58,862 nucleotides of DNA from Chromera velia (Eukaryota): assembly GCA_018398765.1 (NCBI GenBank), contig JAHBMJ010000072.1, positions 1 through 58,862 of the forward strand, in the 5' to 3' direction. The position numbers were made by a program, and so were the translations under genes. Positions 12,177 through 58,862 of this stretch are shown here, one piece after another; within the stretch, counting starts at the first letter, position 1, and each line of letters opens with the position of its first letter. Below the pieces are notes generated by a model. That model saw only the letters and a list, made by a program, of their open reading frames with translations. It was not told the DNA's origin and ran no database searches.

Positions 12177-14330
12177 TTAGTTAGTTAGTTAGTTAGAGGC
12201 TAGGTTAGAGGATGCCTCACCCCAGTTGGAGCGCTAAGCTCCCAGGCAGTACATACATGCATGGTTGTTGTTTGTTAAGTCGCCGGTAGAGTTGATCAGT
12301 TAATCACTTTCTAGAATTGGGAGATAGACATCAAAAAGACAGGCTAGATGTGAGTGTAGAAGCGATCAAATGAAATTACGGATGAAGAGTTCAGATGTAC
12401 TTGCACTGGGGAGTGGACAGTTACAATCATTTGAATTAATGAATTCCAGCTCAGCCAGGCAGTGCAGGAATTCTCTTTCATCCAGCCACTTAGCATATAA
12501 AGAAAGTCTATGCATGAAGTCATCAACACACCGAATATAAGAATCATCTACACAGAGTTTGTGGTCGCTACATTCAACAGACAGAGCACTGCTTTGGCCT
12601 TGTGGGTTAAATGAGAGCAGACATAAGAAACCAAACAGAGAGCTGTCGATTACTGTGAGAGCAGATCGAGGGAGGGCGGAAAAGGAGTAGAAACCAGAGG
12701 CGGATTTGTTACAAAGAAGAAACATAAACATGCGATGAGAGGAGGGAAAAGCTTGTTGAAGGGGGGTGAGCTTGGTAAGAGGAGGGAAATGTGAAGAAGC
12801 GATAGCCCCCGCCTACCGAGTGCAGACCTCTTCCGCAACTGCATGTCTAGCTCTGCCCTTAAAGAAGAAAGAGCCGGTGCCTTAAACTCTCCGTCGCTGC
12901 TGCTCGCTGGTACCAGGGTGTTGCGGCATTCCCACCCCCAACGAACAAACAGAATCTAGACCAGCCCAACGAAGCAGCCGCAAGGAGGCTCTCGAAAAGT
13001 TTAACTCTCGACAACTGTTTCCCTTCCAGGCATGCAACATTGTAGCGGGAACGGTGTGCATGGTTTGTGAGAGCGAGCACCACCAGTCGGCCACTCTAGA
13101 GCAAAGCAGGGCTTTTGCAGGAAGCAGGCCGAAAATATACAGGGAGGGCAAATGAAGACTGCAAGCAGACAGACGGCTAGACTAGCATACAAAACGCAGC
13201 TGCAAAGCATCGATTGTAAAAAGATCAGCATCATAAAGAGGGAAGTATTCGAGGCAATACAGTGTAACAGGGGACTAACACGCTCTAAAAACAGTCATCT
13301 GTGCATCTATACTGAGGGGACCCATGCTGGCAATCAGATGAAACACAGCCCCCAGGGCGCGGGAGGCCGAAGCAATACGCGATTCAACTATCTCACTAAG
13401 GCATCCCCCCTCAAAGAACAAGCACCCCAGGTATTTGTATTCCGTTGCCCATTCAACCTCTTTCTCTTCATATACCACCAAACTGGAGCTTTTTCTAAAT
13501 ATAGAAGCAGACAGGCGGAGAATCTTTATTTTTTTCAGATTGACCGTAAGTCTCCATTCTTTGCAATACTTCTCGAGAGCAGAGAATTTCTTTTGAAGGT
13601 CTGAGACAGAATGGGCAAGAAAGCAGAGATTGTCAGCATAACCCAAACTGTCCAGAACACAATCATCCAGCAAAACTGGCTCCGGCTTGCTTTCTGGCTC
13701 CTCTCTACTGCCTGCTTCCATTTCTATGTCTGTCCGCTCTCGCTCGACTGCCTTGCTGGCATGCCTTGCCTCGCTCTTGCTTGCAAAACACACACGGGGG
13801 AGATCATTTATGTACAGAAGAAAAAGAATAGGTGAGAGGGCATCCCCTTGCTTCACTCCAGTGGTAGACCAGCGCCCTCCCGAAAATGTAGAGAGTCCCT
13901 GTCAATCTAAGGCTTGCCCCATATCTCTCTATACATTTCACACATCATGCAGATGTTTGCCTCACTCACGCCCTCATTTCTCAGTTTCTGAATTAACTTT
14001 GCTCTTGGCACAGTGTCAAACGCCTTAGAAAAGTCAACAAAACCTACCAACAGAGCCTTTCTTTTCTTTTTGTACGAAGAGACAACAGAGGCAAGAGCAC
14101 CACCCCCCTCCCTCGTTCCCACCCTTTTACGGAACCCCAGCTGTCTAAAGTCAAGACGGACCTGGGAACGCACATGGCAGTCCATCAGGAGGCCAAAAAG
14201 TTTTGCAAAAGGGTTTATAACATAGATTGGTCTCCATTCGTTGGGAGAGGGGGAAGCAGGGCCTTTTAAAACTGGGCAAATATGCAAAACATTCCATGAA
14301 GGAGGCCAACAAGCATGAATATACATCAGG
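12177..14330 (-). mobile_element. Degenerate, 5'-truncated non-LTR retrotransposon (LINE) ORF2 with an RT domain and a (TAAC)n 3' tail
   Basis: Minus-strand fragments carry RT motifs WRPI..FAKLF, QLGFR, FVDFSKAFDTV, GVKQGDALSPILFLLYINDL, YADN (degraded YADD), EYKYLG, RIASASRA; interrupted by stops and frameshifts; (TTAG)n on + at ~12177-12196 lies at the expected 3' end. Confidence 0.9.
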
Positions 14331-15670: not shown

Positions 15671-16890
15671 ATCATTCTCTGCAAGACCCTCTCTGCTGAT
15701 ACATTCTCAGAGAGCCACCATCATTCTTTGCAGATTCTCCTTCATTGGGATCCTGCGCAGGCTATGTACTCAGTTCCCTTATAGGGTGCAGGCTACGAAA
15801 ACTTCGGCAAGAATGAGGAGGTATACTCACTGGGTGCTCACGAAATTTTGGAAGCTAGAAAGGACAAAAACTTTGTCCTTCGAGTTATACTTTAAGTTTA
15901 ACATAGTATCCTAGCTCCGGCAGGGCTTATAGGCTAGTGTTGCACCCCGTGTTGCACGAGCTACAATTATTGGCCTTTTATGTTACCATCGATGTACAAT
16001 AACAGAGAAGATACATTCTCAGCAGCAGTGTTCTTCTTTTTGAACTTGACTCTCAAGTTATCATCCCAAATGGCACGAATCTCAAAAGCATCACCCAGTT
16101 TTGCAGAACTTTCAAAGCAATGATCTGCAAGAGTCATAGATCGAGGGTTGACAGATATATGAAATGCAAAGGACAATCAATGGTCTTCATAGGGTCAACC
16201 TATGAAGATGGGACATCAACCCAACTCTCATAGGGTTATCCACCTATGAGTCGAACAGTGGTGCGGACTGATCCTCAACCTTCTTGAGCTTTATGATCTA
16301 GCGTATTTACATATTTCGGTCAGATCTTTTGGGGGCAGCCTTCTTGAGATTCGAAAAATGCTCGTGATACTGCATTCTGTTTGCTTTGGATAGCTTTGGG
16401 CACTGGGTCCCATGCAGCGCTTTGTTACTGAAGTGTTTGTCTGGACTTTGCGTTTAGATTTCGGCATGGTTTTTGTTGCTCTTACTATCTACTTTTTGTC
16501 TTGTAGCTTGGCAGTGCTCGATGATTCATGCTCGTTTACTTCAGAACCTTGACTGTTAACATGCTCATTTTGGAGTTTTCAACCGACAGCCTCAACAGAT
16601 GTTTAAAATGAAAGATGAACTTTTAAGTTGGCTAAGACGATTTACTCTTTATTTTGGCTTACAGATTCCTTCAGCCCATACTCTCGTTCTTTTATGATCT
16701 TCGGGGAAATGTTCACGTCGAGTTTTTCAATGTATGTCCACGGTAAGTATTGCAAAAATAGAATTTTGATGGTCGTTTGATGCATGCATAGATTTCGATG
16801 GAGTGTTACATGCATGCATGCATATTGCAATTCCTCGATGCGTGCGCGGCCCCCCTCCCCCTCGAAAACCCAAAGTGCCTGACGAACAAA

Positions 16891-17575
16891 GGATGCCGTG
16901 ATTGCAACCCCAAGCGACAGTGTGTCACTGCTATTCCACCGATGACAGGGACAAGGCCAGGCCTCGCGAAAACTGCCCTAAGTACAACTCCTCAAGCTTT
17001 TACACCTACAGGAGGCACGTTTCCCAAAATCTTTATCATGATTGCCACCCTAAACGTCACTTCTATGACTGCTATTCTACCGATGACAGGGACAAGGCCA
17101 GGCCTTGCAGAAACTGCCCTAAGTACAACCCCTCATTGACAAGCTTCTACACCCATGGACGACCTCTGATCAAAGGATACCGTGATTGTAACCCCGAACC
17201 TTACTTTTGCGACTGCTATTCCACCGATGACAGGGACAAGGCCAAGAAACGCGGCTACTGTTCCAAGTGTAACCCCTCAAGGTTCTGCACCCATAAGAAG
17301 CACATTTCCCAAAATCCCTGTCATGATTGCTACCCCAAACGTTACTTCTGTGACTGCTATTCTACCGATGACAGGGACAAAGCTAAGAAACGTGGAAATT
17401 GCCCCTACCTAAGTATAAACTATCACTCTACTTCTGTAACTGTTATTCCACCGATGACAGAGACAAGGCTAAGAAACGGTGCCACTCTCCCAAGTACAAC
17501 CCCTTAAGCTTTTATACCCACGGGAGGCATGTTTCCCAAAATCCCTATCATGATTGTCACCCTAAACGTTACTTG
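16891..17575 (+). pseudogene. Decayed Cys/His-rich repeat-protein fragment (~140-bp tandem units, about 5 copies), related in pattern to CxHGR..CxxC repeats
   Basis: Unit core ctgctattc(c/t)accgatgacagggacaag recurs at ~16928, 17069, 17213, 17354 and 17440; translation CDCYSTDDRDKAKKRGYCSKCNPSRFCTHKKHISQNPCHDCYPKRYF, with many Cys->Tyr changes and frameshifts. Confidence 0.75.
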
Positions 17576-34131: not shown

Positions 34132-34212
34132 AAAGTCATTGTATGCAAGCATAGGCCTAGGCATATAGGCATACTAGTAGGCACTAGAGTAAGCATAATT
34201 CTAGGCATATAA

Positions 34213-34301
34213 TTACTTACTTACTTAATTGTAGTTAAGCCTAGAGTCTCTGAAACCAGAGACAAATGGCAACCCATGCATGCAGTTGTAAACAAAAGGA
34301 G
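34213..34301 (-). mobile_element. Short retroposon 3'-end fragment with a (TAAG)n tail, copy 1
   Basis: Reverse complement matches 52695-52783 with one substitution; ends in a tetranucleotide tail. Confidence 0.75.
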
Positions 34302-39100: not shown

Positions 39101-41384
39101 GCATCCACTCAACTATGGGCCTCTGCCCGTTCTCTGCAGCGATGCAGACTGCCATCTGCCCCAGAGTCATCTGCTCGAAGTTCTTCTCTGCAACACATCG
39201 GACCATCGTGGAAGCCTCAAGAGGCAGCGAGTCGGTCTCACACAGGTGTTGGAGGATCCACAACCGCCCAGTGCGGCAGATGGAAATCACCAGATGACGA
39301 CAGAAGTCCGAGACGAAGCCACGCCCCGTCTCCAGCTCCATTCCAGGCTGGCAAAGAAGCCTGCAGAATGGATGGATGGAGGTCGCATACCATGACAGAC
39401 CAGCACACACACAGATAGACGAACAGATGCCACGTTTTCTTTTTCCCTCTTCTTTTCATATTATCTGCATACAGACGGACATACTATATCGTCTTTTTCA
39501 TTCTCTTCTGTTTTTTTATGGCGCGCTCTCTCTGTGGAAGGGTACCCTAACTCCAGGCCTTGAGCGTATCTTGCGGCCCTTCCTTGCCCAGTGCGGGCTT
39601 ACGCTTTTGCAGACAGACAGACGGGCGGATAGACAGAGAGACTATATCGTCTTTTCTTCACTTCACCTTTTCCGAATCACGCAGACAGACAGACAGACAG
39701 ACAGACTATATGTTTCTTCTTCTCCCTCTTTTTCTTCGTGAACAGACAGACAGACAGACAAACAGAGAGACAGACAAACAGACAGACAGACAGACATCCA
39801 GACAGACAGATGGACAGAGAACAACGTGTAGACTCCCCCCCTCTCGTGTGACCTGACCGAACCACCCCGATGACTGACCACTGGAGGTCTGCAGGCCCTG
39901 CAATGGCACCGAACTCCATCGCCACTCGGAGAAGGGCTCTGGAGTCCCTCGCGGCTGCTGTCACCGCTTTTGATCTTGACAGAGCGAACCTGCTGGGCTT
40001 GGGTTTGCCATTCTGCACACAAGAAGAGCCAAAAAGGAAAGAAGATGAGACACGCGGGAGAGCGTTCTTGGAAACGAAAAAAGCGGATATCGTTGACCTG
40101 TCTTCATCCCTCTGCAGTTGCAGTAGGAGTGACACGAAGAAGGCAGCAAGGCAAAGGCCTCCGTTTGAATAGTCACTGCGTGTCTCGGATATGTCGGATC
40201 ACTTGAAAACATGAAGGGAGAAAGCGAGAAACAAGAACGAGAAGCGTCCGAGGAAACAAAAAAGACCCGCCCACCCCCACCCAGCAACCGGCTTACTTAC
40301 CTTCATTCCGACGACCCGCCACTCTCCCTCAGTACCCCTCGCTGAATTCCTCCCCTCTTCCTCATCACCGTCCCCTTCTTTCCCTTCCCCATCCTCTTCG
40401 TCTTCCTTCTCTCCTTCATATTCCTCTTCCCCCTCCTTGTCCACCACCTGCAGGATTCTGGCGGGACTGTGCAGGAGCAGTCTCGAGTGATCATCGAGCC
40501 ACGGGAGGCCCTCCTTCAGCTCCCTCTCGGAGAGACTGAAGAGAACCCCCGCAGCCCCCAAGGCCTCCAGAAACGCCACACTCTTTGCACGCGCAGCAAC
40601 GCACGCCAAGAAGGCGCCCGGAGACATGCGTGACATCACAGAGGTCATGGCATGTCCGTCGAGGTCCGTTCCCTCAGGGAGGCAAAGGGACCCCATCGTC
40701 ATGTCTGTCAGTGAGAAAGATCTCTCACACATTCCCCCCCACCCCTCGCACTCCTCACGAACCCACTCCACCGCCACAGGGTTATCCACCTCCGCACCCC
40801 CCCAGAGGATCTGGAAGGGTACAACTACTGCACACCACACACCCGAAGACCCCCCAGCCTCAGCAGGGGAATCAGAGTCCTCTTCTGTCAGTAGGCCTGC
40901 AAATCGCAGGAACTCCCCAATCTCCCCCTTCAATGACGCCCTCGCACCCACCCCCCTGAGGATCGCATCGAGCATTCCGGGGCGGTCCCCTTCCTTCACA
41001 CATGACTGCAGAAGGCCAACATCTGCAGGAGAGACTGAAAGCGAGTGACAGACCCGCAGACGGTCATCGAAGTTCAATCTTCTTCTGAAGATCGTCAGCC
41101 AATCGAGATCGTCTGCTGCTGCCACCCTGCCCAACTCCCCCACCAGACGGGACCACTCAGACGAGGACAGATACTCCATTTCATCCCCCCCCTCCATACG
41201 CTCAGACCGGTGCAATTCCCCTCCTCCCCCCATATGCACAGACTGAAGCTTCTCTTTTGCCCAGTCGGACAAACGGGCCCAGCAGGACAGAGACGTCTCA
41301 GGACAGTCGGATGTCACAGACGAAGCAGGAGAGAAGTAGGGGGCCGGACCCCGGGACTCGATGCTCACAAATCCCTGCAGGCAC

Positions 41385-41422
<38 letters not shown>

Positions 41423-44400
41423 GGAGAGGGAGGGGGTGGGAAACGTGGGGGGGAGAAGGCCTTCGCAGCCAGCAATTTGCGTCATGCCACCGCACTGGTG
41501 GGGTCCTCTTTCTTCCCACAAGCAGAAGTTTTCCAATTCCATGTGTCTTCCTTTGTCTTTTACTCTTCCCTCCCCAGGTTCAAGTTCCTCTGAACAGTCC
41601 CCACCCACTCATGCACACACCTACCCTCCCTTTCCCCTAAAACACCCCCCTTGCCACGACCCACCCACCTCGGCGCGGTCCTCGAGCCACTCCTCCTTCC
41701 TGCGTCCCACTGCCTCCATGAATCCCTTCACCCAGCTGCAGGACTTCCTTCGAAGGACGACAATCTGAGTGTCTGCATTGAAGGGAAGAAGGAATGGACA
41801 GGCAGATGCAGAGATACTCATGACATTCTGAGTGTCTGCAGGAGGACAGACAGAGAAACTCGGAGACGGGAGGAGAACAGGAGCACAGAATGGAGAAGGG
41901 ATAACTGTCGGAAGACGTCCACGGGGAAGTGTTTCCTCATTGATGACTGCATCTGACCAGAAGTGAATGACGAAACTGACTAGATCTCGGAGAGAACACC
42001 CCCATGAAGCCAGATACAGACAGAGGAAGGAGGACAAGAGCAAAGGAAGAGGGAGAGAGTCCAACCTGGAGGGACTACCAGAGGGTCCATCAGTTCGGTA
42101 TCTGAGAGGAATTCGTCTGCATTGACGCACGCAGAGGGCGGGGAAAGGGAGAGGGGGATTAGATGCGGGCACGCTGACCAGCGGTAAGAAGGACCACGCG
42201 AAGAGTCAGGCTCCAAAGGAGGACCGCAAAGAAGAGACGGAAAATTCAGCAAGCTTTAAGGGTTGTGTGTGAGACGGAGTTTAGAAAAGGAGTATTGCAG
42301 AAGAGGGGACGCCACGAGAAGAGGCGCACAACTGATCGAGACAGAGACAAGGAAAGAGGAAGGTACCTTTGAGATGAGCTGTCTGTCACTCGAGAGAAAA
42401 ATCAGTATCATTCTCGCTGACTAACTGATCACCTTCCTGACACACTCTCCCTCACTGACTGACAGTCAAGCACAAGGATGGCAATTCTGTGTCTCCTCGC
42501 CATATTCGGGTTCTTGTTCTGTGTTGTCCCCTCTTGGCCACCTCCCCCCGTGCCAGGCCGCAGCACCACAAACGCCTCCCTGGGACACGACTCGAGGGCC
42601 GCAATCGGCCACCCGCACCTCACTCCCCCCTGCTGGAGGGCCCCACGGACCCCGGCATCGAACGCCGCCTCCAGGCAACTTCGGAGCGCCGCAGCCCGAC
42701 GGAACCCCTTCGTGACGATGGAACAGAATGCAGATTTCTCTGCAATTGCTTGATCGAGTTTGGACAGACCCGGTCGGAGTGGAGGAAAGACTGTGGTCAC
42801 AGGCAGCACTTTCTTCTGTTTGGAGAGGAACTTGGGGGGTGTGGGAGGCTCTGGAGCCGTCCCGTCGAGGAGCTTCTGCAGCACCAGGGAGGCCACGAGG
42901 TGGGCAGAGGGTCGGGCGTCGCAGCTGATGAAGAGAACGTCCCTTCCGGCCACGACAGCAGAGAGGAGGGAAGCCTCATCTGCAGCACAGGAGGGAAGGA
43001 AGAGAGGGGAGAGGAGAGATGCGGAAGGCAAATCAGAGAAGAACAGATGAAGAAAACCGAAGAGAAGGGATTGTGACAGCACTTCCAGGTGGCAAAAACG
43101 CAACCACGAGCAAAAAGGGTACCCCTTCAGTATCCCCACATGTCAAGAGAGCCGGCACGATACTTTTCTAATCAGGCAGGACAAAAGGGAAGAAAAAGAG
43201 TCCATGCTGGGTAGATCCGAAGACAACAGATATAAGAATTGAAGGTGCCACACCACTACGAAACGAAACCGATCAGAGAGAACTTTGCTTTGGTTGATTG
43301 ATTCGTGCCCCCTTCCACCCCCCTCCTACCTGCGGATGGGGGGAACGGCATCACTGAGGACTCCCTCAGGGCTTTGACCAGGGAGGGCGCGAAGAAGTTC
43401 AGCGTCTCTGCACTGTCCCTCCCCCCCGCATAAGCTCTCTGGCAGTTCTCGGCCTCGCCCGCTTCCTCGATCTGCATGCAGGCGATCAAACGCATAGACA
43501 AATGGATGCCCGTTTGAGAGTCACAAAGTCCGTTGGGCAGAAAACATTCTTGCATTCTTTTCGCAGCTTTTTGAGCATGATTTGGATGCAACACAGCTGC
43601 ATCGCTTTCTTTCTGCTGAGGACGAGTCGCATCGATCAGTGGTGAAAAAAAAGGAAAGAGACCATTCCGCCACTCAAAACAAAACAGGACAGGGAGGAAT
43701 CAGAGAGGCGCATCAAGGAGAAGCCGAACAATCGTGAAAGGACACCGCCTTCTTCTCGTGAAGATCTGAGGAACACACAGACAGACAGACTATATGTTTC
43801 TTCTTCTTCTCCCTCCTTTTCTTCATGAACAGACAGACAGACAGACAGACAGGCAGGCAGACAGACAGGCAGACAGACAGACAGACAGACGAACAGACAG
43901 ACAGACAGACTATATCGTCCTTTCTTTTCTTTTCACTTCCTTTTGTTTCGAAGACAGGCAGGCAGGCAGGCAGGCAGACAGATAGGCAGACAGGCAGGCA
44001 GGAAGACATACAGACTGACAGGAGGGGTGAGAGACCGGAGGCTCCTGCTGAGCGACGGAGACGACGAACGAAGAGAACCGAAAGAGAAGGGGAAAGAGCT
44101 TCTGTTCATAGTAGAGGCGGAACATTCAGGCAAGGGCACCACACCCCCGCCTGTCTTCACATGCCACTGCTCTCTGTCTCTCTCTCTGTCTCTGTCGCCC
44201 TCTTTGTCGTTCCCCATTCCCGACCCCGACCCCCATCCCGCCTTTGTTGAGAGGGACGCGACATCGTCCAGACGGGACATCCCTCCCTCCCCCTTCACTG
44301 CCGTACTTGCCCTTTCTTTACCCTTTCCTTCTCCCTCCTTCTCTGTCGCGGTCACTCGAAGAAACGCTTTGAGGAATTTTGCAGACAGGGGGCTCTGCAC

Positions 44401-51653: not shown

Positions 51654-52439
51654 TAGTGCTAGGAAAAGGTTCAAGGTTCAAGGTTCAAGGTTCACTTCGA
51701 AGTAATGAACCTGAATCAGGTTCAAAAACAGGTTCACTTTTAATTAATAGAAACCTCATTTTTGCCCGGCCTGTTGCCCCCCCCCTTGCTCCCCCCCATG
51801 GCTCCCACCACTCCCAGCTATCACGGGTGGCACCCACACATCTGGGCTTGCATTCGTTCCAACCTTTTGCCACATAAAATCGGATTGAAACTCTGTTTTC
51901 GAATACTCATCAGTGCACCCGATCATATGAATTGGTAATATTATGTCACCTGCTTTGTACTTTGCATGAGGAGCAACATTCTTGTTCAACCCCCCTCTCG
52001 TCCACTTCATCATTCCTTTAACGTCTCTTGTTCAACTCTATACTTCCTCATTCCTTCAGTGGAGACTGTCTGTTTTGATGCGGGGCCTTGCAAGTGGAAA
52101 ACTTGGTAAGTCAGTGTACTTTTTCACTTCTACAACCATCAGCATGAGTTTTCATGCTGACATATGATGCTGACATATGCTGACATGCGTTTGTCCGACA
52201 CAATAGATTGAACCGGCTGGGGACAGTTGCTATGCGCGCAACTCCAGCTCCAGCTCCTTATTTCACCTATATCGGCCGTGGGCGGCGCGGGCCTGGCCGG
52301 CTTTGTGTTAGTGGCCGCGTGTCTGGCCTCCAAAACAGGTTCAAAACAGGTTCAACAGGTTTAACAGGTTCAAAACAGGTTCAACAGGTTCACTTTTTCA
52401 GATTTGAACCTTTTCTCAATGAACCTTTTCCCAGCCCTA
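51654..52439. mobile_element. Non-autonomous hAT-type DNA transposon (MITE), 786 bp
   Basis: 20-bp TIRs tagtgctaggaaaaggttca / tgaaccttttcccagcccta (2 mismatches); perfect 8-bp TSD GGTCTGCA at 51646-51653 and 52440-52447; subterminal AGGTTCA arrays at both ends. Confidence 0.92.
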
Positions 52440-52694: not shown

Positions 52695-52791
52695 CTCCTT
52701 TTGTTTACAACTGCATGCATGGGTTGCCATTTGTCTCTGGTTTCAGAGACTCTAGGCTTAACCACAATTAAGTAAGTAAGTAAGTAAGTAA
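52695..52791 (+). mobile_element. Short retroposon 3'-end fragment with a (TAAG)n tail, copy 2 (may extend upstream)
   Basis: ctccttttgtttacaactgcatgcatgggttgccatttgtctctggtttcagagactctaggcttaaccacaat(taag)n; inverted match to 34213-34301. Confidence 0.75.
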
Positions 52792-53024: not shown

Positions 53025-56000
53025 TTATTGCACCTTTCCAACAAATCTGTTTCCCTTCTGAAGATTCTCTCTCGACCACATCGGCTGGAGGTTGGAAAAA
53101 TGCAGACGTGCAATCTGCGTCTCTTTGCTTGGCCTCTCCCCACCAGGCCCTACGTACATGATGGGGGTGATATGGTCGACATGCCAGTGAGTGCCGTAAT
53201 TCTGCCACGACATTCCGGGGTTGCCGTGGAAATCGTCTTTTTCAAGGTGGGACTTCAAGTTTTCGTACGAGCAACCCAAGTATTCGTGGGTACGTTTGCG
53301 CTCTGGGACAGGCCTTCCAGAGCGAATCTTTCTCAACACCTTTGTGATCACAGAACGTGAAATAGCCATCAGCCGAAAGACCGCGTCTTCTTTGTATCGC
53401 GCTATAAAGCTCTCTCGCCGTCTTTCCTTTCGTTTTGCGAAAGAAGGGTTGTCTTTCTGGCACACCGGACAGTCAGATCGAACGCGGTCGTGTTCGCAAA
53501 TCTGACTTCCATTACACTGCCGACACAATTCACGTCTACGGCCGTGCTCGCAGATACCTTTCCCATTACACTCCTTGCAACGGTACCTGTACCTTCCATG
53601 TTCACAAAGTCCTTTTCCACCACACTCCTTGCACACATACTTCTGCCGTCCGTGCATGCAGAAGGAGTTTCCTCCACAATCCCTGCACCGGTCTCGTCGG
53701 CGTCCATGGACACAGATTCTACTCCCCCCGCACTCTTTGCACCAATATTTGATTCGGCCATGAATGCAAATGGAGCCCCCTCCACACTCTTTGCAGTGGC
53801 CTCTCTGTCGTCCATGTTGACATATTCCCTTCCCTCCACATTCCCTGCAAGTGTACTTGTATCGGTTGTGTACACAAATGGCACTTCCCCCACATTCCTT
53901 GCACTTATCTCGCCTCCTTCCATGTGCGCAGATTCCGTTTCCTCCACAGTCTCTGCAAAACCTTCGTTGGCGTCCGTGCTCGCACAGCCCCTTCCCGTCG
54001 CAATCCCTACAGTACCGGCGCTCTCTTCCGTGTTCACATACTGCACTACCCCCACAATCCTTACAATATGACCGCTGGCGCCCGTGACAACAAATCCCCC
54101 CCCCCCCGCACTCCTTGCAGAGATACCTTTGCCTGCCATGTGGGCACTTGCCCTTCTGTTTTGGCTTTGTGTTTGTCAGCTTTTCAGATGCGGTTACAGA
54201 AACCCTACCAGAAGTGCAAGAATGAGACCTGAATAATCTTGTTTCACTTGTCTGTTGCTTGGGGCTGTTTCTCAACTCGCTGTCCCCACCGGGGGACTGA
54301 ATCACGCCAACAATGTCCTCTAACAGAATCTCTCTTCCCATCCCGAAACTCTCTGACAGCGCGGAGGAACGAGAAGGAAAGGATAAAACAGCAAAACCTC
54401 TCACCCCAGACCTCTCTGCATTGATTCCCCGCTTCGGGTGCTGGTTCACGACAGTGGTGGTGCCCACGGAGAGACTCACTCGATGTGCGGNCAATTCACG
54501 TCTACGGCCGTGCTCGCAGATACCTTTCCCATTACACTCCTTGCAACGGTACCTGTACCTTCCATGTTCACAAAGTCCTTTTCCACCACACTCCTTGCAC
54601 ACATACTTCTGCCGTCCGTGCATGCAGAAGGAGTTTCCTCCACAATCCCTGCACCGGTCTCGTCGGCGTCCATGGACACAGATTCTACTCCCCCCGCACT
54701 CTTTGCACCAATATTTGATTCGGCCATGAATGCAAATGGAGCCCCCTCCACACTCTTTGCAGTGGCCTCTCTGTCGTCCATGTTGACATATTCCCTTCCC
54801 TCCACATTCCCTGCAAGTGTACTTGTATCGGTTGTGTACACAAATGGCACTTCCCCCACATTCCTTGCACTTATCTCGCCTCCTTCCATGTGCGCAGATT
54901 CCGTTTCCTCCACAGTCTCTGCAAAACCTTCGTTGGCGTCCGTGCTCGCACAGCCCCTTCCCGTCGCAATCCCTACAGTACCGGCGCTCTCTTCCGTGTT
55001 CACATACTGCACTACCCCCACAATCCTTACAATATGACCGCTGGCGCCCGTGACAACAAATCCCCCCCCCCCCGCACTCCTTGCAGAGATACCTTTGCCT
55101 GCCATGTGGGCACTTGCCCTTCTGTTTTGGCTTTGTGTTTGTCAGCTTTTCAGATGCGGTTACAGAAACCCTACCAGAAGTGCAAGAATGAGACCTGAAT
55201 AATCTTGTTTCACTTGTCTGTTGCTTGGGGCTGTTTCTCAACTCGCTGTCCCCACCGGGGGACTGAATCACGCCAACAATGTCCTCTAACAGAATCTCTC
55301 TTCCCATCCCGAAACTCTCTGACAGCGCGGAGGAACGAGAAGGAAAGGATAAAACAGCAAAACCTCTCACCCCAGACCTCTCTGCATTGATTCCCCGCTT
55401 CGGGTGCTGGTTCACGACAGTGGTGGTGCCCACGGAGAGACTCACTCGATGTGCGGAGAATGTATGGAGCGGGCTTGAAAGGGTCTGCAGAAAAGTGACG
55501 GGGCTGCACTCCTTCAGTGGGGACCTTACGATAGGCTGCAGCTGCAGAGGGCAGACGAGTGTGACTTGCTTTGAGAATTGACATTGTTTTTTCTGAAGCG
55601 ACACGGCAGGTAAGCCCGCAGAAGACTTCCCCACATATCTGTTTCCCTTCTGAAGATTCTCTCTCGACCACATCGGCTGGAGGTTTGAAAAGTGCAGACG
55701 TGCAATCTGCGTCTCTTTGCTTGGCCTCTCCCCACCAGGCCCTACGTACATGATGGGGGTGATATGGTCGACATGCCAGTGAGTGCCGTAATTCTGCCAC
55801 GACATTCCGGGGTTGCCGTGGAAATCGTCTTTTTCAAGGTGGGACTTCAAGTTTTCGTACGAGCAACCCAAGTATTCGTGGGTACGTTTGCGCTCGGGGA
55901 GAGGCTTTTCATCTCTGCAAGCAGACAGGCACTTGTATACAACATTTCGAGTGTTTTTTGTCAAGCGGTAGACAAAATCTTCTTTGCATCGCAGTTTTTC

Positions 56001-56921
56001 TCGTTCTCTCCTCTCCGCAAATGCTGGGTTGTCCTTCTGGCACACTGCGCATTTTGAGCGAACCCTGTCGTGTTGGCATATTTGACTTCCCTTACACTCC
56101 TTGCACGTCGTCCGCAGGCGGCCGTGCACGCATACTCCACTTCCGCGGCACTCTACACAGCGGTACCTGTGCTTTCCATGTTCGCATATTCCCTTGCCTC
56201 CACATTCCCTACACCAGTACTTGCGGCGGCCGTGTTTGCACAGCGAACTTCCCCCACACTCTTTGCAACGGTCTCGCCGCCGACCGTGGGGGCAGAGCTT
56301 TCTGGTCTTCTGTGTTTTTGGGATATAAGGTGCCAGCCGGTCTTTTGTTCCTTCGGCCCTTCCAGCGTCTGAGGAGGCTGCTGTGAAAACGGATGGGGAA
56401 ACGTGGAAACGGTCCTGGGTCTTTGATGTGTTGGGAGTTTCTGCCCCGGTGGATCCTAGGACCCGGAGGGAAGACGTATTTTTGAAGCAAATTTGTAACT
56501 CATTATGCCTCTTGCTTGACGACTGTGGACCTACAGTGTCGCGGACTTTCTGCTTGTCAGCGTGAAGACCCTTGTCCTCGTTCTGTCCCTTCCAGGCGGT
56601 AGGCCCGGGTTTCAAACATGAAAAATGCCGACTACAGCCTGAAGGCTGGACGAAGTTCGTGCCAAACAAGCGGAACGATCCCGAGAAACAAAATCTGGAT
56701 CCAGGAAGCCGAGAAGACGAAATTTCAGCTGAGCTATAAATTGGCTCTCTGGAATGCAGCGTCGAAAGCGTGTTTTTCTCTGGTTCTACATGAAGGGCGG
56801 ACACCTCGCACTTGCACTGTGCAGAATTTCTGTTCTTTTCGAAAACTCTGCGCTGCGTCAAGCATCGGCGAGCGTGGCATCCTGTCACACTTTGACAAAG
56901 GAGCTGATGGACGCTTCTCAT
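53025..56921 (-). CDS. Intronless protein with two [18-aa CxHGR..CxxC repeat array + HNH (beta-beta-alpha-Me) endonuclease] modules; first ATG at 56921; about 322 aa shorter if the N-flanked duplication is an artefact
   Basis: Repeats such as CEHGRQRRFCRDCGGNGI; the nuclease block YLGCSYENLKSHLE..GMSWQNYGTHWHVDHITP..LHFSNLQPMWSRENLQKG occurs twice (55620-55895 and 53025-53305). Confidence 0.88.
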   Translation of the reverse strand: MRSVHQLLCQSVTGCHARRCLTQRRVFEKNRNSAQCKCEVSALHVEPEKNTLSTLHSREPIYSSAEISSSRLPGSRFCFSGSFRLFGTNFVQPSGCSRHFSCLKPGPTAWKGQNEDKGLHADKQKVRDTVGPQSSSKRHNELQICFKNTSSLRVLGSTGAETPNTSKTQDRFHVSPSVFTAASSDAGRAEGTKDRLAPYIPKTQKTRKLCPHGRRRDRCKECGGSSLCKHGRRKYWCRECGGKGICEHGKHRYRCVECRGSGVCVHGRLRTTCKECKGSQICQHDRVRSKCAVCQKDNPAFAERREREKLRCKEDFVYRLTKNTRNVVYKCLSACRDEKPLPERKRTHEYLGCSYENLKSHLEKDDFHGNPGMSWQNYGTHWHVDHITPIMYVGPGGERPSKETQIARLHFSNLQPMWSRENLQKGNRYVGKSSAGLPAVSLQKKQCQFSKQVTLVCPLQLQPIVRSPLKECSPVTFLQTLSSPLHTFSAHRVSLSVGTTTVVNQHPKRGINAERSGVRGFAVLSFPSRSSALSESFGMGREILLEDIVGVIQSPGGDSELRNSPKQQTSETRLFRSHSCTSGRVSVTASEKLTNTKPKQKGKCPHGRQRYLCKECGGGGICCHGRQRSYCKDCGGSAVCEHGRERRYCRDCDGKGLCEHGRQRRFCRDCGGNGICAHGRRRDKCKECGGSAICVHNRYKYTCRECGGKGICQHGRQRGHCKECGGGSICIHGRIKYWCKECGGSRICVHGRRRDRCRDCGGNSFCMHGRQKYVCKECGGKGLCEHGRYRYRCKECNGKGICEHGRRRELXAHRVSLSVGTTTVVNQHPKRGINAERSGVRGFAVLSFPSRSSALSESFGMGREILLEDIVGVIQSPGGDSELRNSPKQQTSETRLFRSHSCTSGRVSVTASEKLTNTKPKQKGKCPHGRQRYLCKECGGGGICCHGRQRSYCKDCGGSAVCEHGRERRYCRDCDGKGLCEHGRQRRFCRDCGGNGICAHGRRRDKCKECGGSAICVHNRYKYTCRECGGKGICQHGRQRGHCKECGGGSICIHGRIKYWCKECGGSRICVHGRRRDRCRDCGGNSFCMHGRQKYVCKECGGKGLCEHGRYRYRCKECNGKGICEHGRRRELCRQCNGSQICEHDRVRSDCPVCQKDNPSFAKRKERRRESFIARYKEDAVFRLMAISRSVITKVLRKIRSGRPVPERKRTHEYLGCSYENLKSHLEKDDFHGNPGMSWQNYGTHWHVDHITPIMYVGPGGERPSKETQIARLHFSNLQPMWSRENLQKGNRFVGKVQ
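53526..55456. repeat. 965-bp direct duplication (53526-54490 = 54492-55456) separated by a single N; probable assembly artefact
   Basis: Copies appear identical, with the same ORF translations at an offset of 966, and the junction is an N. Confidence 0.85.
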
Positions 56922-57432: not shown

Positions 57433-58862
57433 TCCTCAAAAAAGTCAATCTAAAACTACGTAAAACTAAAACACAGAAAAAATAGAAAATGAAATCTTAA
57501 GATATTAATATCATCATTACAAAAAAAAAGGGGGGGGTAGAGAAAAAGAACGGAACAACACCAAACTAAATAGCAGACACAATGAAAGCAGGCTCACAGA
57601 TAGTACTTGTTAGATACATTAGAGACAACAACACTTAAAACAGTATCAGTCTATATGTATAAGGAGAGCAAGAGGGATATAAGCAACAGTGAAGACAGGG
57701 GCTATGTTATAGCTACAGGAGGAGGCGTGGCTGCAGTACAGGCTTTTGGTTACTCCTTATGAACAAAACGACTTAACACAACTAGACGTGACAGAGTTTT
57801 CAGTTAATATGACTGATTAATTCAAAATTAAAAGAAATTAACAACTTGAATATGCAAATAATCTGCAGTTAAAATCTTTTTCAAGAAAACAAAAAAGATG
57901 GAATATATGTGTTACATATATACCCGTGGAGTATACAAACGTAACTATTATGCAGACAAAGTATACAAACTATAAACAAAAAGATACAGTCTTACATTGA
58001 ATATCGGGGCTCATGACGCCATACCATACATTAGCATAATATAGCGGACTACTTATCTGACTCCTCAGGCTAGAGGTTTCTTCCTTGGTGGAGTTCAGCA
58101 AGTGCAAAGTCTGTTCAGGGTTCGAGTCACTGCGTAAAAATCTCAAAGTCCGGATGAAGGTCTCTTGTTCACTCTCTAGCTCTCTTTTGATTCATTTTCT
58201 CATCACTTTTTAAACTGGTGGAAAACGCCGAAAGTCAATATTTGCTGTTTTGGAGAGCAATTTCTGGTTCGATCTTGATATACGTATTTACATACATATA
58301 TGTTAGTCTTTTGCGCATATGTTTTTCATTCTGTATCTGACCTACAAGTTAGTATTCAAGGACGTGTGTCTTAAGGTATTTAGTTTTCCCCATGTTTTTT
58401 CTATTTTTGTATTCATTTTGCAGGCCTGTATTTATATACGTCTGTAAGTCCAAATCTTGCTTTTTTCTTGACGTGGCCACTTTGTTTTCAGACATACCGA
58501 CTCCTTTAATGTTCATGCGATCTTAAGAATACATGTAAGTTCGGGAAAATGTATGTACATACGTCTCTAAATATATGCAACTTCTTGTTTGTCTCTAATG
58601 AATCAAGTTTATTTTTACTTCTAAACATGTATGATAGTATAAAATATTAATCCTGGTGTAAAAGTGTTCTTAACATTTCTTAACGTGATATATAAGTGTG
58701 GCTTGGTATGTACATTCGTATGTGGCTTGGTATGTAGGTTGATATATATGTGTCAGTCTATTTACCTTATATGTTTCATTATAATACTTATCTTAATTAT
58801 TTCTTTTCTTTCTCTTTTCCTCTTTCTCTCTCTCTTCTTAATATAATCAGCTACTTATAGAG

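What the first reader, a model, noticed from the sequence alone, without database searches (positions are those of the whole stretch)
53025..56921. Natural modular repeat-array nuclease: 18-aa Zn-finger-like repeats with a hypervariable window fused to a virus-like HNH
Each repeat has a fixed scaffold C-x-H-G-R-[4 variable]-C-[KR]-[ED]-C-G-G-x-x-[ILFV]. The variable window is rich in basic and aromatic residues. Array 1: RRDR, RKYW, HRYR, LRTT, VRSK. Array 2: QRYL, QRSY, ERRY, QRRF, RRDK, YKYT, QRGH, IKYW, RRDR, QKYV, YRYR, RREL, VRSD. Both arrays end in a capping repeat (HDRVRS.C.VCQKDNP), a helical linker and a beta-beta-alpha-Me domain with intact DH..N..N residues (WHVDH, NLQP, ENL.KG), of a type I recall from large DNA viruses and phages. 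Constant scaffold plus variable positions plus a C-terminal nuclease parallels TALEN/ZFN design. It suggests a repeat-encoded nucleic-acid recognition code, serving homing-like selfishness, anti-viral/transposon defence or organellar processing. Function is inference.
Basis: partly seen in the sequence, partly recalled or inferred. Interest (0 to 1): 0.88.

Follow-up and report, generated by a model that had tools for sequence, protein, structure and literature searches.

The report
Alga's captured giant-virus double zinc-repeat nuclease
A Chromera-type alga transcribes one gene holding two strings of tiny zinc-type repeats, each followed by a predicted DNA-cutting domain likely captured from a giant virus; the repeats likely choose the DNA target, but no reading code could be found.

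Summary
A 966-bp stretch duplicated across a single N is probably an assembly artefact, so the protein is about 976 aa: 5 repeats-HNH-linker-13 repeats-HNH. The 'four variable residues' are really x-[RK]-x-x (positions 6, 8, 9).

The closest relatives are Chromera velia proteins. The gene is transcribed, both HNH sites are intact, and 10 of 13 Chromera gene models show the tandem layout. The Chromera HNH cores nest among array-HNH proteins from giant-virus and environmental DNA. In giant viruses the same array is fused to HNH or PD-(D/E)xK nucleases, in optional genes that often sit beside the capsid gene, and array content tracks genomic site. That is free-standing homing-endonuclease behaviour.

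A TALE-like code is not shown: the variable positions are not under positive selection in viral orthologues, and three decoding tests failed. This scan has found the array before in giant viruses, mostly with a Vsr-type nuclease. The nuclear, expressed, amplified, double-HNH form is new here. Best reading: a virus-derived, target-directed nickase family kept by the host, probably against foreign DNA.

The parts
53025..56921 (-). Whole ORF, first Met to stop; about 976 aa once the 966-bp duplicate is set aside
   Evidence: RNA contigs cover it in pieces
56295..56921 (-). N-terminal extension, 209 aa, no Pfam family and no similarity to any fetched protein
56040..56294 (-). Array 1: five 18-aa C-x-H-x6-C-x2-C repeats (RRDR RKYW HRYR LRTT, cap VRSK)
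55626..56039 (-). Helical segment and HNH (beta-beta-alpha-Me) domain 1; Asp of DH at 55767-55769
55113..55625 (-). Open 171-aa linker between HNH 1 and array 2; RNA contigs cross most of it with no splice joint listed
54491..55456 (.). 966-bp duplicate across a single N (part of the linker plus 11 repeats); probable assembly artefact
53460..54146 (-). Array 2: thirteen repeats (QRYL QRSY ERRY QRRF RRDK YKYT QRGH IKYW RRDR QKYV YRYR RREL, cap VRSD)
53028..53459 (-). Helical segment and HNH domain 2; D324-H325 at 53172-53177, N352 at 53091-53093, N361 at 53064-53066 (numbering of P0001)

Best explanation
This is a transcribed nuclear gene of a Chromera-type alga that joins two zinc-repeat-array-plus-HNH modules, likely captured from a giant-virus homing-type nuclease and kept as a family of predicted target-directed DNA nickases, probably aimed at viral or mobile DNA. 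Mechanism: each 18-aa repeat is predicted to bind one zinc through C1, H3, C10, C13 and to show residues 7-9 on a short helical turn. Fixed K/R at 5 and 7 would grip the backbone, and residues 6, 8, 9 would touch bases (inferred). The string of repeats would pick a long site, and the HNH behind it would nick one strand (inferred from family chemistry). Two modules in one chain would either nick both strands near each other or cover two targets (untested). Shown: anatomy, transcription, intact catalytic motifs, family expansion with tandem layout, nesting among viral-type relatives. Inferred: DNA binding, cleavage, specificity and the defensive role.
For: Top homologues are C. velia proteins. 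The 18 Chromera/window HNH cores form one clade (support 0.999) inside a 67-member clade (0.942) whose other 49 members all carry the array, including Marseillevirus LCMAC101. The HNH matches PHROG 1035 at 1.8e-08 and the predicted structure of a Bodo saltans virus intron-encoded endonuclease at 2.9e-07. DH...N is kept in 73 of 79 array-HNH proteins. The model has mean pLDDT 90.7 with a regular repeat fold. RNA contigs cover the ORF in runs that show GT..AG splicing in neighbouring genes and no cover in silent stretches. Of 13 C. velia models, 7 have two HNH cores and 3 more have an HNH followed by an array. Viral relatives: optional at a site; capsid-gene start in 31 of 82 loci, and in 13 of 38 contigs of 30 kb or more against at most 6.0 expected; AAAATTGA upstream of 43 of 77 array genes against 69 of 478 other ORFs. 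At 70-85% nuclease identity, same-site arrays keep in-register identity at 6/8/9 (0.35 vs 0.17 out of register; 47 pairs) and different-site arrays do not (0.16 vs 0.15; 264 pairs). No terminal repeats around the window's gene among the 25 longest of 62 inverted pairs; its linker and N-terminus match no paralogue.
Against: No binding or cleavage data exist. The evolutionary tests were run on viral loci, mostly of the PD-(D/E)xK type, not on Chromera DNA, because no genome was held. Same-site pairs are not independent (5 clusters) and may simply share descent; positions 17 and 18 are held as well as 6 and 9. There is no positive selection at 6/8/9 (dN/dS 0.35, other variable sites 0.30). No code was recovered. 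The tree uses about 95 columns, a midpoint root and hits chosen by similarity to the window. Expression is low and comes from contigs of one study, strand unknown; run X5 of another study barely covers the ORF. The defensive role has no direct evidence.
Confidence: 0.5

Rival explanations
1. Still a selfish gene: the array-HNH cuts empty alleles or ectopic sites in the alga's own genome and is copied in by repair, which would explain the dispersal, the tandem modules and the homogenised HNH cores.
For: Viral relatives behave like free-standing homing genes, and some ride as cargo beside a DDE transposase. There are at least 13 gene models with scattered Cvel numbers. The two HNH cores in the window are nearly identical.
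Against: Paralogues share no linker or N-terminal similarity with the window. No terminal repeats or transposase were seen beside the gene. RNA contigs, apparently of another strain, carry the same gene with about 1% differences.
Confidence: 0.22
2. On the way to a transcription-factor family: the array is the useful part, a DNA-binding module like AP2, and the HNH is a passenger.
For: Of 344 fetched proteins with three or more repeats, 122 had neither nuclease motif behind the array; some of these carry other nucleases. Nuclease-free arrays occur in C. velia (CBM20 fusions) and Hanusia phi and with chromo or RING domains. AP2 domains sit in homing endonucleases or integrases outside Apicomplexa (PMC4117751, passages).
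Against: 17 of 18 Chromera/window cores keep the DH pair, and the cores are strongly conserved.
Confidence: 0.15
3. The arrays are basic, low-specificity DNA or RNA clamps; their variability is drift and unequal crossing-over at tolerant surface sites.
For: Array 2 has 51 K+R against 23 D+E. Repeat number differs in 36 of 70 pairs with nuclease identity of 90% or more. In pairs at 85-99.5% identity, positions 6/8/9 are held no better than other sites (0.605 vs 0.618). The decoding tests were negative.
Against: Arrays at one capsid-adjacent site keep the same residues repeat by repeat across diverged viruses. At 70-85% nuclease identity 6/8/9 are held better than other variable sites (0.885 vs 0.965; 0 of 500 bootstraps reversed), though this weakens when end repeats are dropped.
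Confidence: 0.13

Closest known systems
Free-standing HNH homing endonucleases of phage T4 (mob genes) and ICP1 (HNH plus zinc finger or AP2; T5orf172 with repeated CapR zinc fingers) (PMC2988022, PMC10448857; passages read)
   Same: [quoted passage not shown]
   Different: The binding module here is an 18-aa CxH-x6-CxxC repeat with no Pfam family and no solved-structure match, in 5-13 copies N-terminal to the HNH. The gene is nuclear, eukaryotic and doubled, with no shown empty allele.
Intron-encoded HNH endonuclease of Bodo saltans virus (A0A2H4UUB1; PMC5871332, passages)
   Same: Predicted structure matches the model over 148 columns, 28% identity, E 2.9e-07.
   Different: It sits in a self-splicing intron of a virus. 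The window gene is free-standing with no intron seen. Whether the BsV protein carries the array was not checked.
Giant-virus array-nucleases: A0A481YSM3 (Marseillevirus LCMAC101) and A0A481Z8I3 (Pithovirus LCPAC304, named 'DnaJ central domain protein')
   Same: A0A481YSM3 has the same repeat and HNH, 40% identical over 307 columns. A0A481Z8I3 is the best fold match, E 2.1e-25.
   Different: A0A481YSM3 is a single module; both are uncharacterised. Most viral relatives carry a PD-(D/E)xK domain instead (82 of the 120 best hits).
HNH-AP2 endonucleases and ApiAP2 transcription factors (PMC4117751, passages; Wuitschick 2004 seen only as a reference title)
   Same: A DNA-binding domain from mobile nucleases taken into alveolate nuclear genomes.
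   Different: Unrelated binding domain; here the nuclease motif is retained.
Engineered ZFNs and TALENs; PRDM9 (recalled, no call)
   Same: Constant-scaffold repeats with focal variable residues ahead of an effector.
   Different: No code shown; the window's repeats are old and diverged (median 57% DNA identity), not near-identical; no positive selection in viral orthologues.
MIGE of PgV and CeV (10.1101/299784 and PMC4669402, passages)
   Same: Multi-copy giant-virus element with a zinc-finger ORF.
   Different: Described as one ORF with a zinc-finger motif behind a conserved non-coding piece; no repeat array or HNH is mentioned in the passages seen. The primary papers were not held, so sequences were not compared.

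Membership tests
HNH (beta-beta-alpha-Me) nucleases | D-H pair, structural Asn and metal-binding Asn on a beta-beta-alpha core | tested here: met
   D324, P328, N352, N361 invariant in 69 of 69 aligned rows, H325 in 90% or more; strands 321-325 and 353-357, helix 358-364; PHROG 1035. Solved-structure matches are weak but of this fold (CAD Z 4.8, rmsd 4.4, 119 aligned; PacI Z 4.6, rmsd 4.2, 91 aligned). No Pfam HNH hit.
HNH (beta-beta-alpha-Me) nucleases | Metal-dependent DNA cleavage | not testable with these tools
   Needs an assay.
Free-standing homing endonucleases | Nuclease joined to separate DNA-binding modules | tested here: inconclusive
   Modular layout and exchange between HNH, PD-(D/E)xK and GIY-YIG are shown; DNA binding by the array is inferred.
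Free-standing homing endonucleases | Optional gene beside conserved genes | tested here: inconclusive
   Met for viral relatives. For the window no empty allele could be sought, and RNA contigs with about 1% differences carry the gene.
Free-standing homing endonucleases | Cleaves a cognate site in alleles lacking the gene and is over-inherited | not testable with these tools
   No target could be predicted.
TALE/ZFN-like programmable arrays | Constant scaffold with fixed variable positions | tested here: met
   Positions 6, 8, 9 at 3.3, 2.8, 3.7 bits over 1138 repeats; position 17 is also variable (2.6 bits).
TALE/ZFN-like programmable arrays | Residue-to-base code per repeat | tested here: inconclusive
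   Gibbs search on 11 arrays, 9 models: 2 above all three nulls, by 0.6 and 1.0 units. Chemistry code on 27 arrays x 6 models: smallest p 0.06. Profile search on 8 groups: 3 of 11 models above four nulls, about 2 expected by chance. Power was low and only the capsid gene was searched.
TALE/ZFN-like programmable arrays | Diversifying selection at contact residues (PRDM9-like) | tested here: not met
   dN/dS 0.35 at 6/8/9 in 11 independent viral pairs; not testable for Chromera paralogues.
Mariner/Fanzor cargo transposons (PGv-1 type, PMC3627910) | Transposase, terminal inverted repeats, nuclease as cargo | tested here: not met
   No transposase ORF or terminal repeats seen around the window's gene. 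Some viral relatives do lie beside a DDE_3 transposase (L170).
EsV-1-7 repeats (PF19114) | Pfam match | tested here: not met
   No hit for the window's proteins.
MIGE | Conserved non-coding leader plus MIGE ORF | not tested
   Primary papers not held; no MIGE sequence was available.

The most novel reading that the evidence does not exclude
An alveolate alga has turned giant-virus homing nucleases into an expanded family of single-chain paired nickases. Their 18-aa zinc repeats read DNA by a simple, swappable code and are aimed at viral core genes: an innate immune system and a very compact natural ZFN/TALEN equivalent.
Probability: 0.15. Interest if true: 0.92.

Novelty: new variant of a known kind. 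Interest (0 to 1): 0.62.

Why it matters
The repeat has no Pfam family, no solved relative was found, and it belongs to a very large family: 5,526 clusters at E up to 1e-10 for the array-HNH query, HNH-only hits included. It moves between at least three nuclease types and into nuclease-free algal proteins, which parallels how AP2 domains are thought to have become apicomplexan transcription factors. Chromera gives a culturable host with an expressed, intact, doubled version, hidden so far because six gene models read the array in the wrong frame. If the repeats read DNA modularly, an 18-aa unit would be shorter than a C2H2 finger or a TALE repeat (sizes recalled). It would also make the idea of protist defence by captured viral nucleases directly testable.

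Tried and rejected
No genome held for this window, so no paralogue DNA, dN/dS or empty-allele search in the host.

Pfam, NCBIfam and PDB sequence searches gave nothing meaningful for the repeat (the Nanos hit at E 0.03 and the DnaJ hit were rejected). Fold searches of a 5-repeat model found no match; this does not prove a new fold. In the phage collection, 89 records match and none covers 80% of the query; the 30 listed matches start at residue 161 or later.

An alternative zinc grouping across repeats (CxxC...CxH) was rejected: 0 of 79 arrays end with a trailing CxH, and 7 of 79 start with a leading CxxC.

Positive selection at the variable positions was not found. A two-bases-per-repeat reading of the capsid start that I saw by eye did not survive the scan, and the other decoding models failed too.

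The HNH homodimer prediction gave no verdict (score 0.00). The protein atlas did not complete. Scans of genome and metagenome contigs with alignments returned errors, so cellular prokaryote genomes were not screened. The run search listed no holder on record as RNA; RNA status rests on the splice joints.

Literature: no paper held all of Chromera velia + zinc finger + HNH + repeat. Motif strings gave only unrelated papers. A giant-virus repeat-endonuclease search listed 9 papers, of which 3 were checked by passage and none of those passages described this array. The library lacks most subscription papers; no supplements were read.
Full report
Observation. The - strand carries one open frame from 57002 to the stop at 53025, with its first Met at 56921. 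A motif scan of all six frames of the window finds 29 C-x-H-x6-C-x2-C units, all in this frame. Five form array 1 and thirteen form array 2. Eleven lie in a 966-bp stretch that repeats its neighbour exactly except at the single N at 54491 and the base beside it. Such an overlap at a gap is a typical scaffolding artefact (own knowledge). RNA contigs bridge both outer edges of the duplicate, and none of the pieces listed spans the N (the table was cut). Without the duplicate the protein is 976 aa: 209-aa extension, 5 repeats, helices, HNH, 171-aa linker, 13 repeats, helices, HNH. The linker has no stop in this frame (chance about 5e-4; 10 and 3 stops in the other two frames).

Repeat anatomy. 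Over 1138 repeats from the 120 best homologues, positions 5 and 7 are mostly K/R, and 6, 8, 9 are the most variable (3.3, 2.8, 3.7 bits). The unit is therefore x-[RK]-x-x. Arrays begin with CxH and end with CxxC, which points to C1, H3, C10, C13 as one zinc site. AlphaFold2 models the 13-repeat module at mean pLDDT 90.7 and a 5-repeat piece at 93.5. No solved structure resembles the array and Pfam has no family for it. The window's repeats are old: median DNA identity 57%, third positions near random.

Nuclease. D324, N352 and N361 are invariant in 69 aligned rows, and 73 of 79 array-HNH proteins keep DH...N. The domain matches PHROG 1035, weakly CAD and PacI (Z 4.8 and 4.6), and many viral models (29 at E up to 0.001), among them an intron-encoded endonuclease of Bodo saltans virus. 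The two cores in the window differ at 3 of about 260 nt while the adjacent helices have diverged, which suggests recent gene conversion. RNA contigs show each core carrying a base of the other, so collapse during assembly cannot be excluded.

Host and expression. The best homologues are Chromera velia proteins, so the window is very likely C. velia or a close chromerid (inference). Runs X1-X3 show GT..AG splice joints in neighbouring genes and no cover at 40898-43561 or 57548-58862, and they cover the ORF in unspliced pieces at depth about 3-7. They come from one study; X5 from another barely covers the gene. Summed depth over the HNH cores is several-fold to ten-fold higher, as expected if paralogues are transcribed too, though the tool warns that contig depth is a poor measure. 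Thirteen C. velia gene models carry this HNH. Seven have two cores, three more have an HNH followed by an array, and six read the array in a shifted frame. The tandem layout is thus a family trait, not a quirk of this locus. The linker and N-terminus match none of the fetched proteins, and no terminal repeats flank the gene.

Origin. In a tree of 208 unique HNH cores (228 extracted, 20 identical or short ones dropped), the 18 Chromera/window cores are monophyletic (0.999). They sit within a 67-member clade (0.942) whose other 49 members all carry the array (midpoint root, short alignment, hits selected by similarity). Array-HNH genes lie on giant-virus contigs and in Marseillevirus LCMAC101. 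The direction virus-to-alga is inferred from this nesting and was not tested with a formal rooted test.

Behaviour in viruses. The array is fused to PD-(D/E)xK (145), HNH (77) or other or no domains (122) among 344 fetched proteins, including GIY-YIG, chromo, RING and ligase domains. Of 82 unique viral array genes, 31 have the capsid gene start in their locus, at several distinct positions (capsid confirmed by Pfam for L176). On contigs of 30 kb or more the count is 13 of 38 against at most 6.0 expected, but the loci are related to each other. The gene is present between capsid and VLTF3 genes in some viruses and absent there in others. AAAATTGA, linked mainly to early genes in mimivirus (PMC5294985, passages), precedes 43 of 77 array genes against 69 of 478 other ORFs (5 of 11 for the HNH type). 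Some copies lie beside a DDE transposase, like the nuclease cargo of PGv-1-type elements (PMC3627910, passages). This matches free-standing homing endonucleases as reviewed for T4 and ICP1 (PMC2988022, PMC10448857, passages).

Is there a code? For: at 70-85% nuclease identity, same-site arrays keep in-register identity at 6/8/9 (0.35 vs 0.17) while different-site arrays do not (0.16 vs 0.15). Arrays at one capsid-adjacent site keep the same residues repeat by repeat. In 38 independent pairs, 6/8/9 are held better than other variable sites (0.885 vs 0.965). Against: that gap is absent in 21 closer pairs, shrinks when end repeats are dropped (bootstrap 0.09 and 0.02), and is shared by positions 17 and 18. 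dN/dS at 6/8/9 is 0.35. Three searches for a residue-to-base map on capsid DNA did not beat shuffled arrays. The array probably sets specificity, but a simple code is unproven.

Verdict. This is a real, expressed, intact gene. It is built like a modular homing endonuclease, but membership is not established for the host copy because mobility and cleavage are untested. What this locus adds is capture by a eukaryote, family expansion and a conserved two-module layout. I rank host-kept defence first, selfish spread second, and regulatory or non-specific roles after. Papers were seen as search listings or found passages only; no supplements were read.

Noticed in passing
window 51654-52439: A roughly 790-bp element with 20-bp inverted ends; many RNA contigs break off at exactly these ends, which suggests a multi-copy MITE just downstream of the gene.
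   Followed up: partly
window 34210-34301 and 52695-52786: A 92-bp sequence present twice in inverted orientation, 98% identical, and very deep in RNA contigs: another dispersed repeat.
   Followed up: no
window 16884-17574 (+): ORF with a different Cys-rich tandem repeat of about 47 aa (CDCYSTDDRDKA...CxxC); only a sub-threshold DUF4329 hit. Unexplained.
   Followed up: partly
window 1-2358 (+) and 13275-13901 (-): LTR-retrotransposon pol fragment (RNase H, integrase zinc domain) with an in-frame stop at 1509, and a separate reverse-transcriptase fragment.
   Followed up: partly
window 53636: RNA contigs of three runs read Met for Val at position 9 of one repeat (QKYV to QKYM), a polymorphism inside the variable window.
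   Followed up: no
L215, L277, L345, L379, L381, L384, L385: All 7 listed carriers of one conserved capsid-adjacent array have a capsid gene starting M-T-G-G-G-L; none of the other 39 capsid genes does. It could be a self-immunity mark or just a lineage marker.
   Followed up: partly
upstream of several viral array genes (one search list): An 11-bp inverted repeat lies between the AAAATTGA motif and the ATG; possibly an autoregulatory operator or hairpin.
   Followed up: no
L161, L162, L170, L171: Array-PD-(D/E)xK genes lie beside an ORF of about 620 aa, and in L161, L170 and L171 also near a transposase-like ORF (DDE_3 confirmed for L170).
   Followed up: partly
C. velia models Cvel_22226, 23820, 29388, 24816, 6061, 11200: These public gene models translate the repeat array in a shifted frame, which hides the family in annotation.
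   Followed up: yes
L001, L084: Array-HNH genes on small contigs whose tested neighbours have no clear Pfam family; possibly polinton-like viruses, unverified.
   Followed up: no
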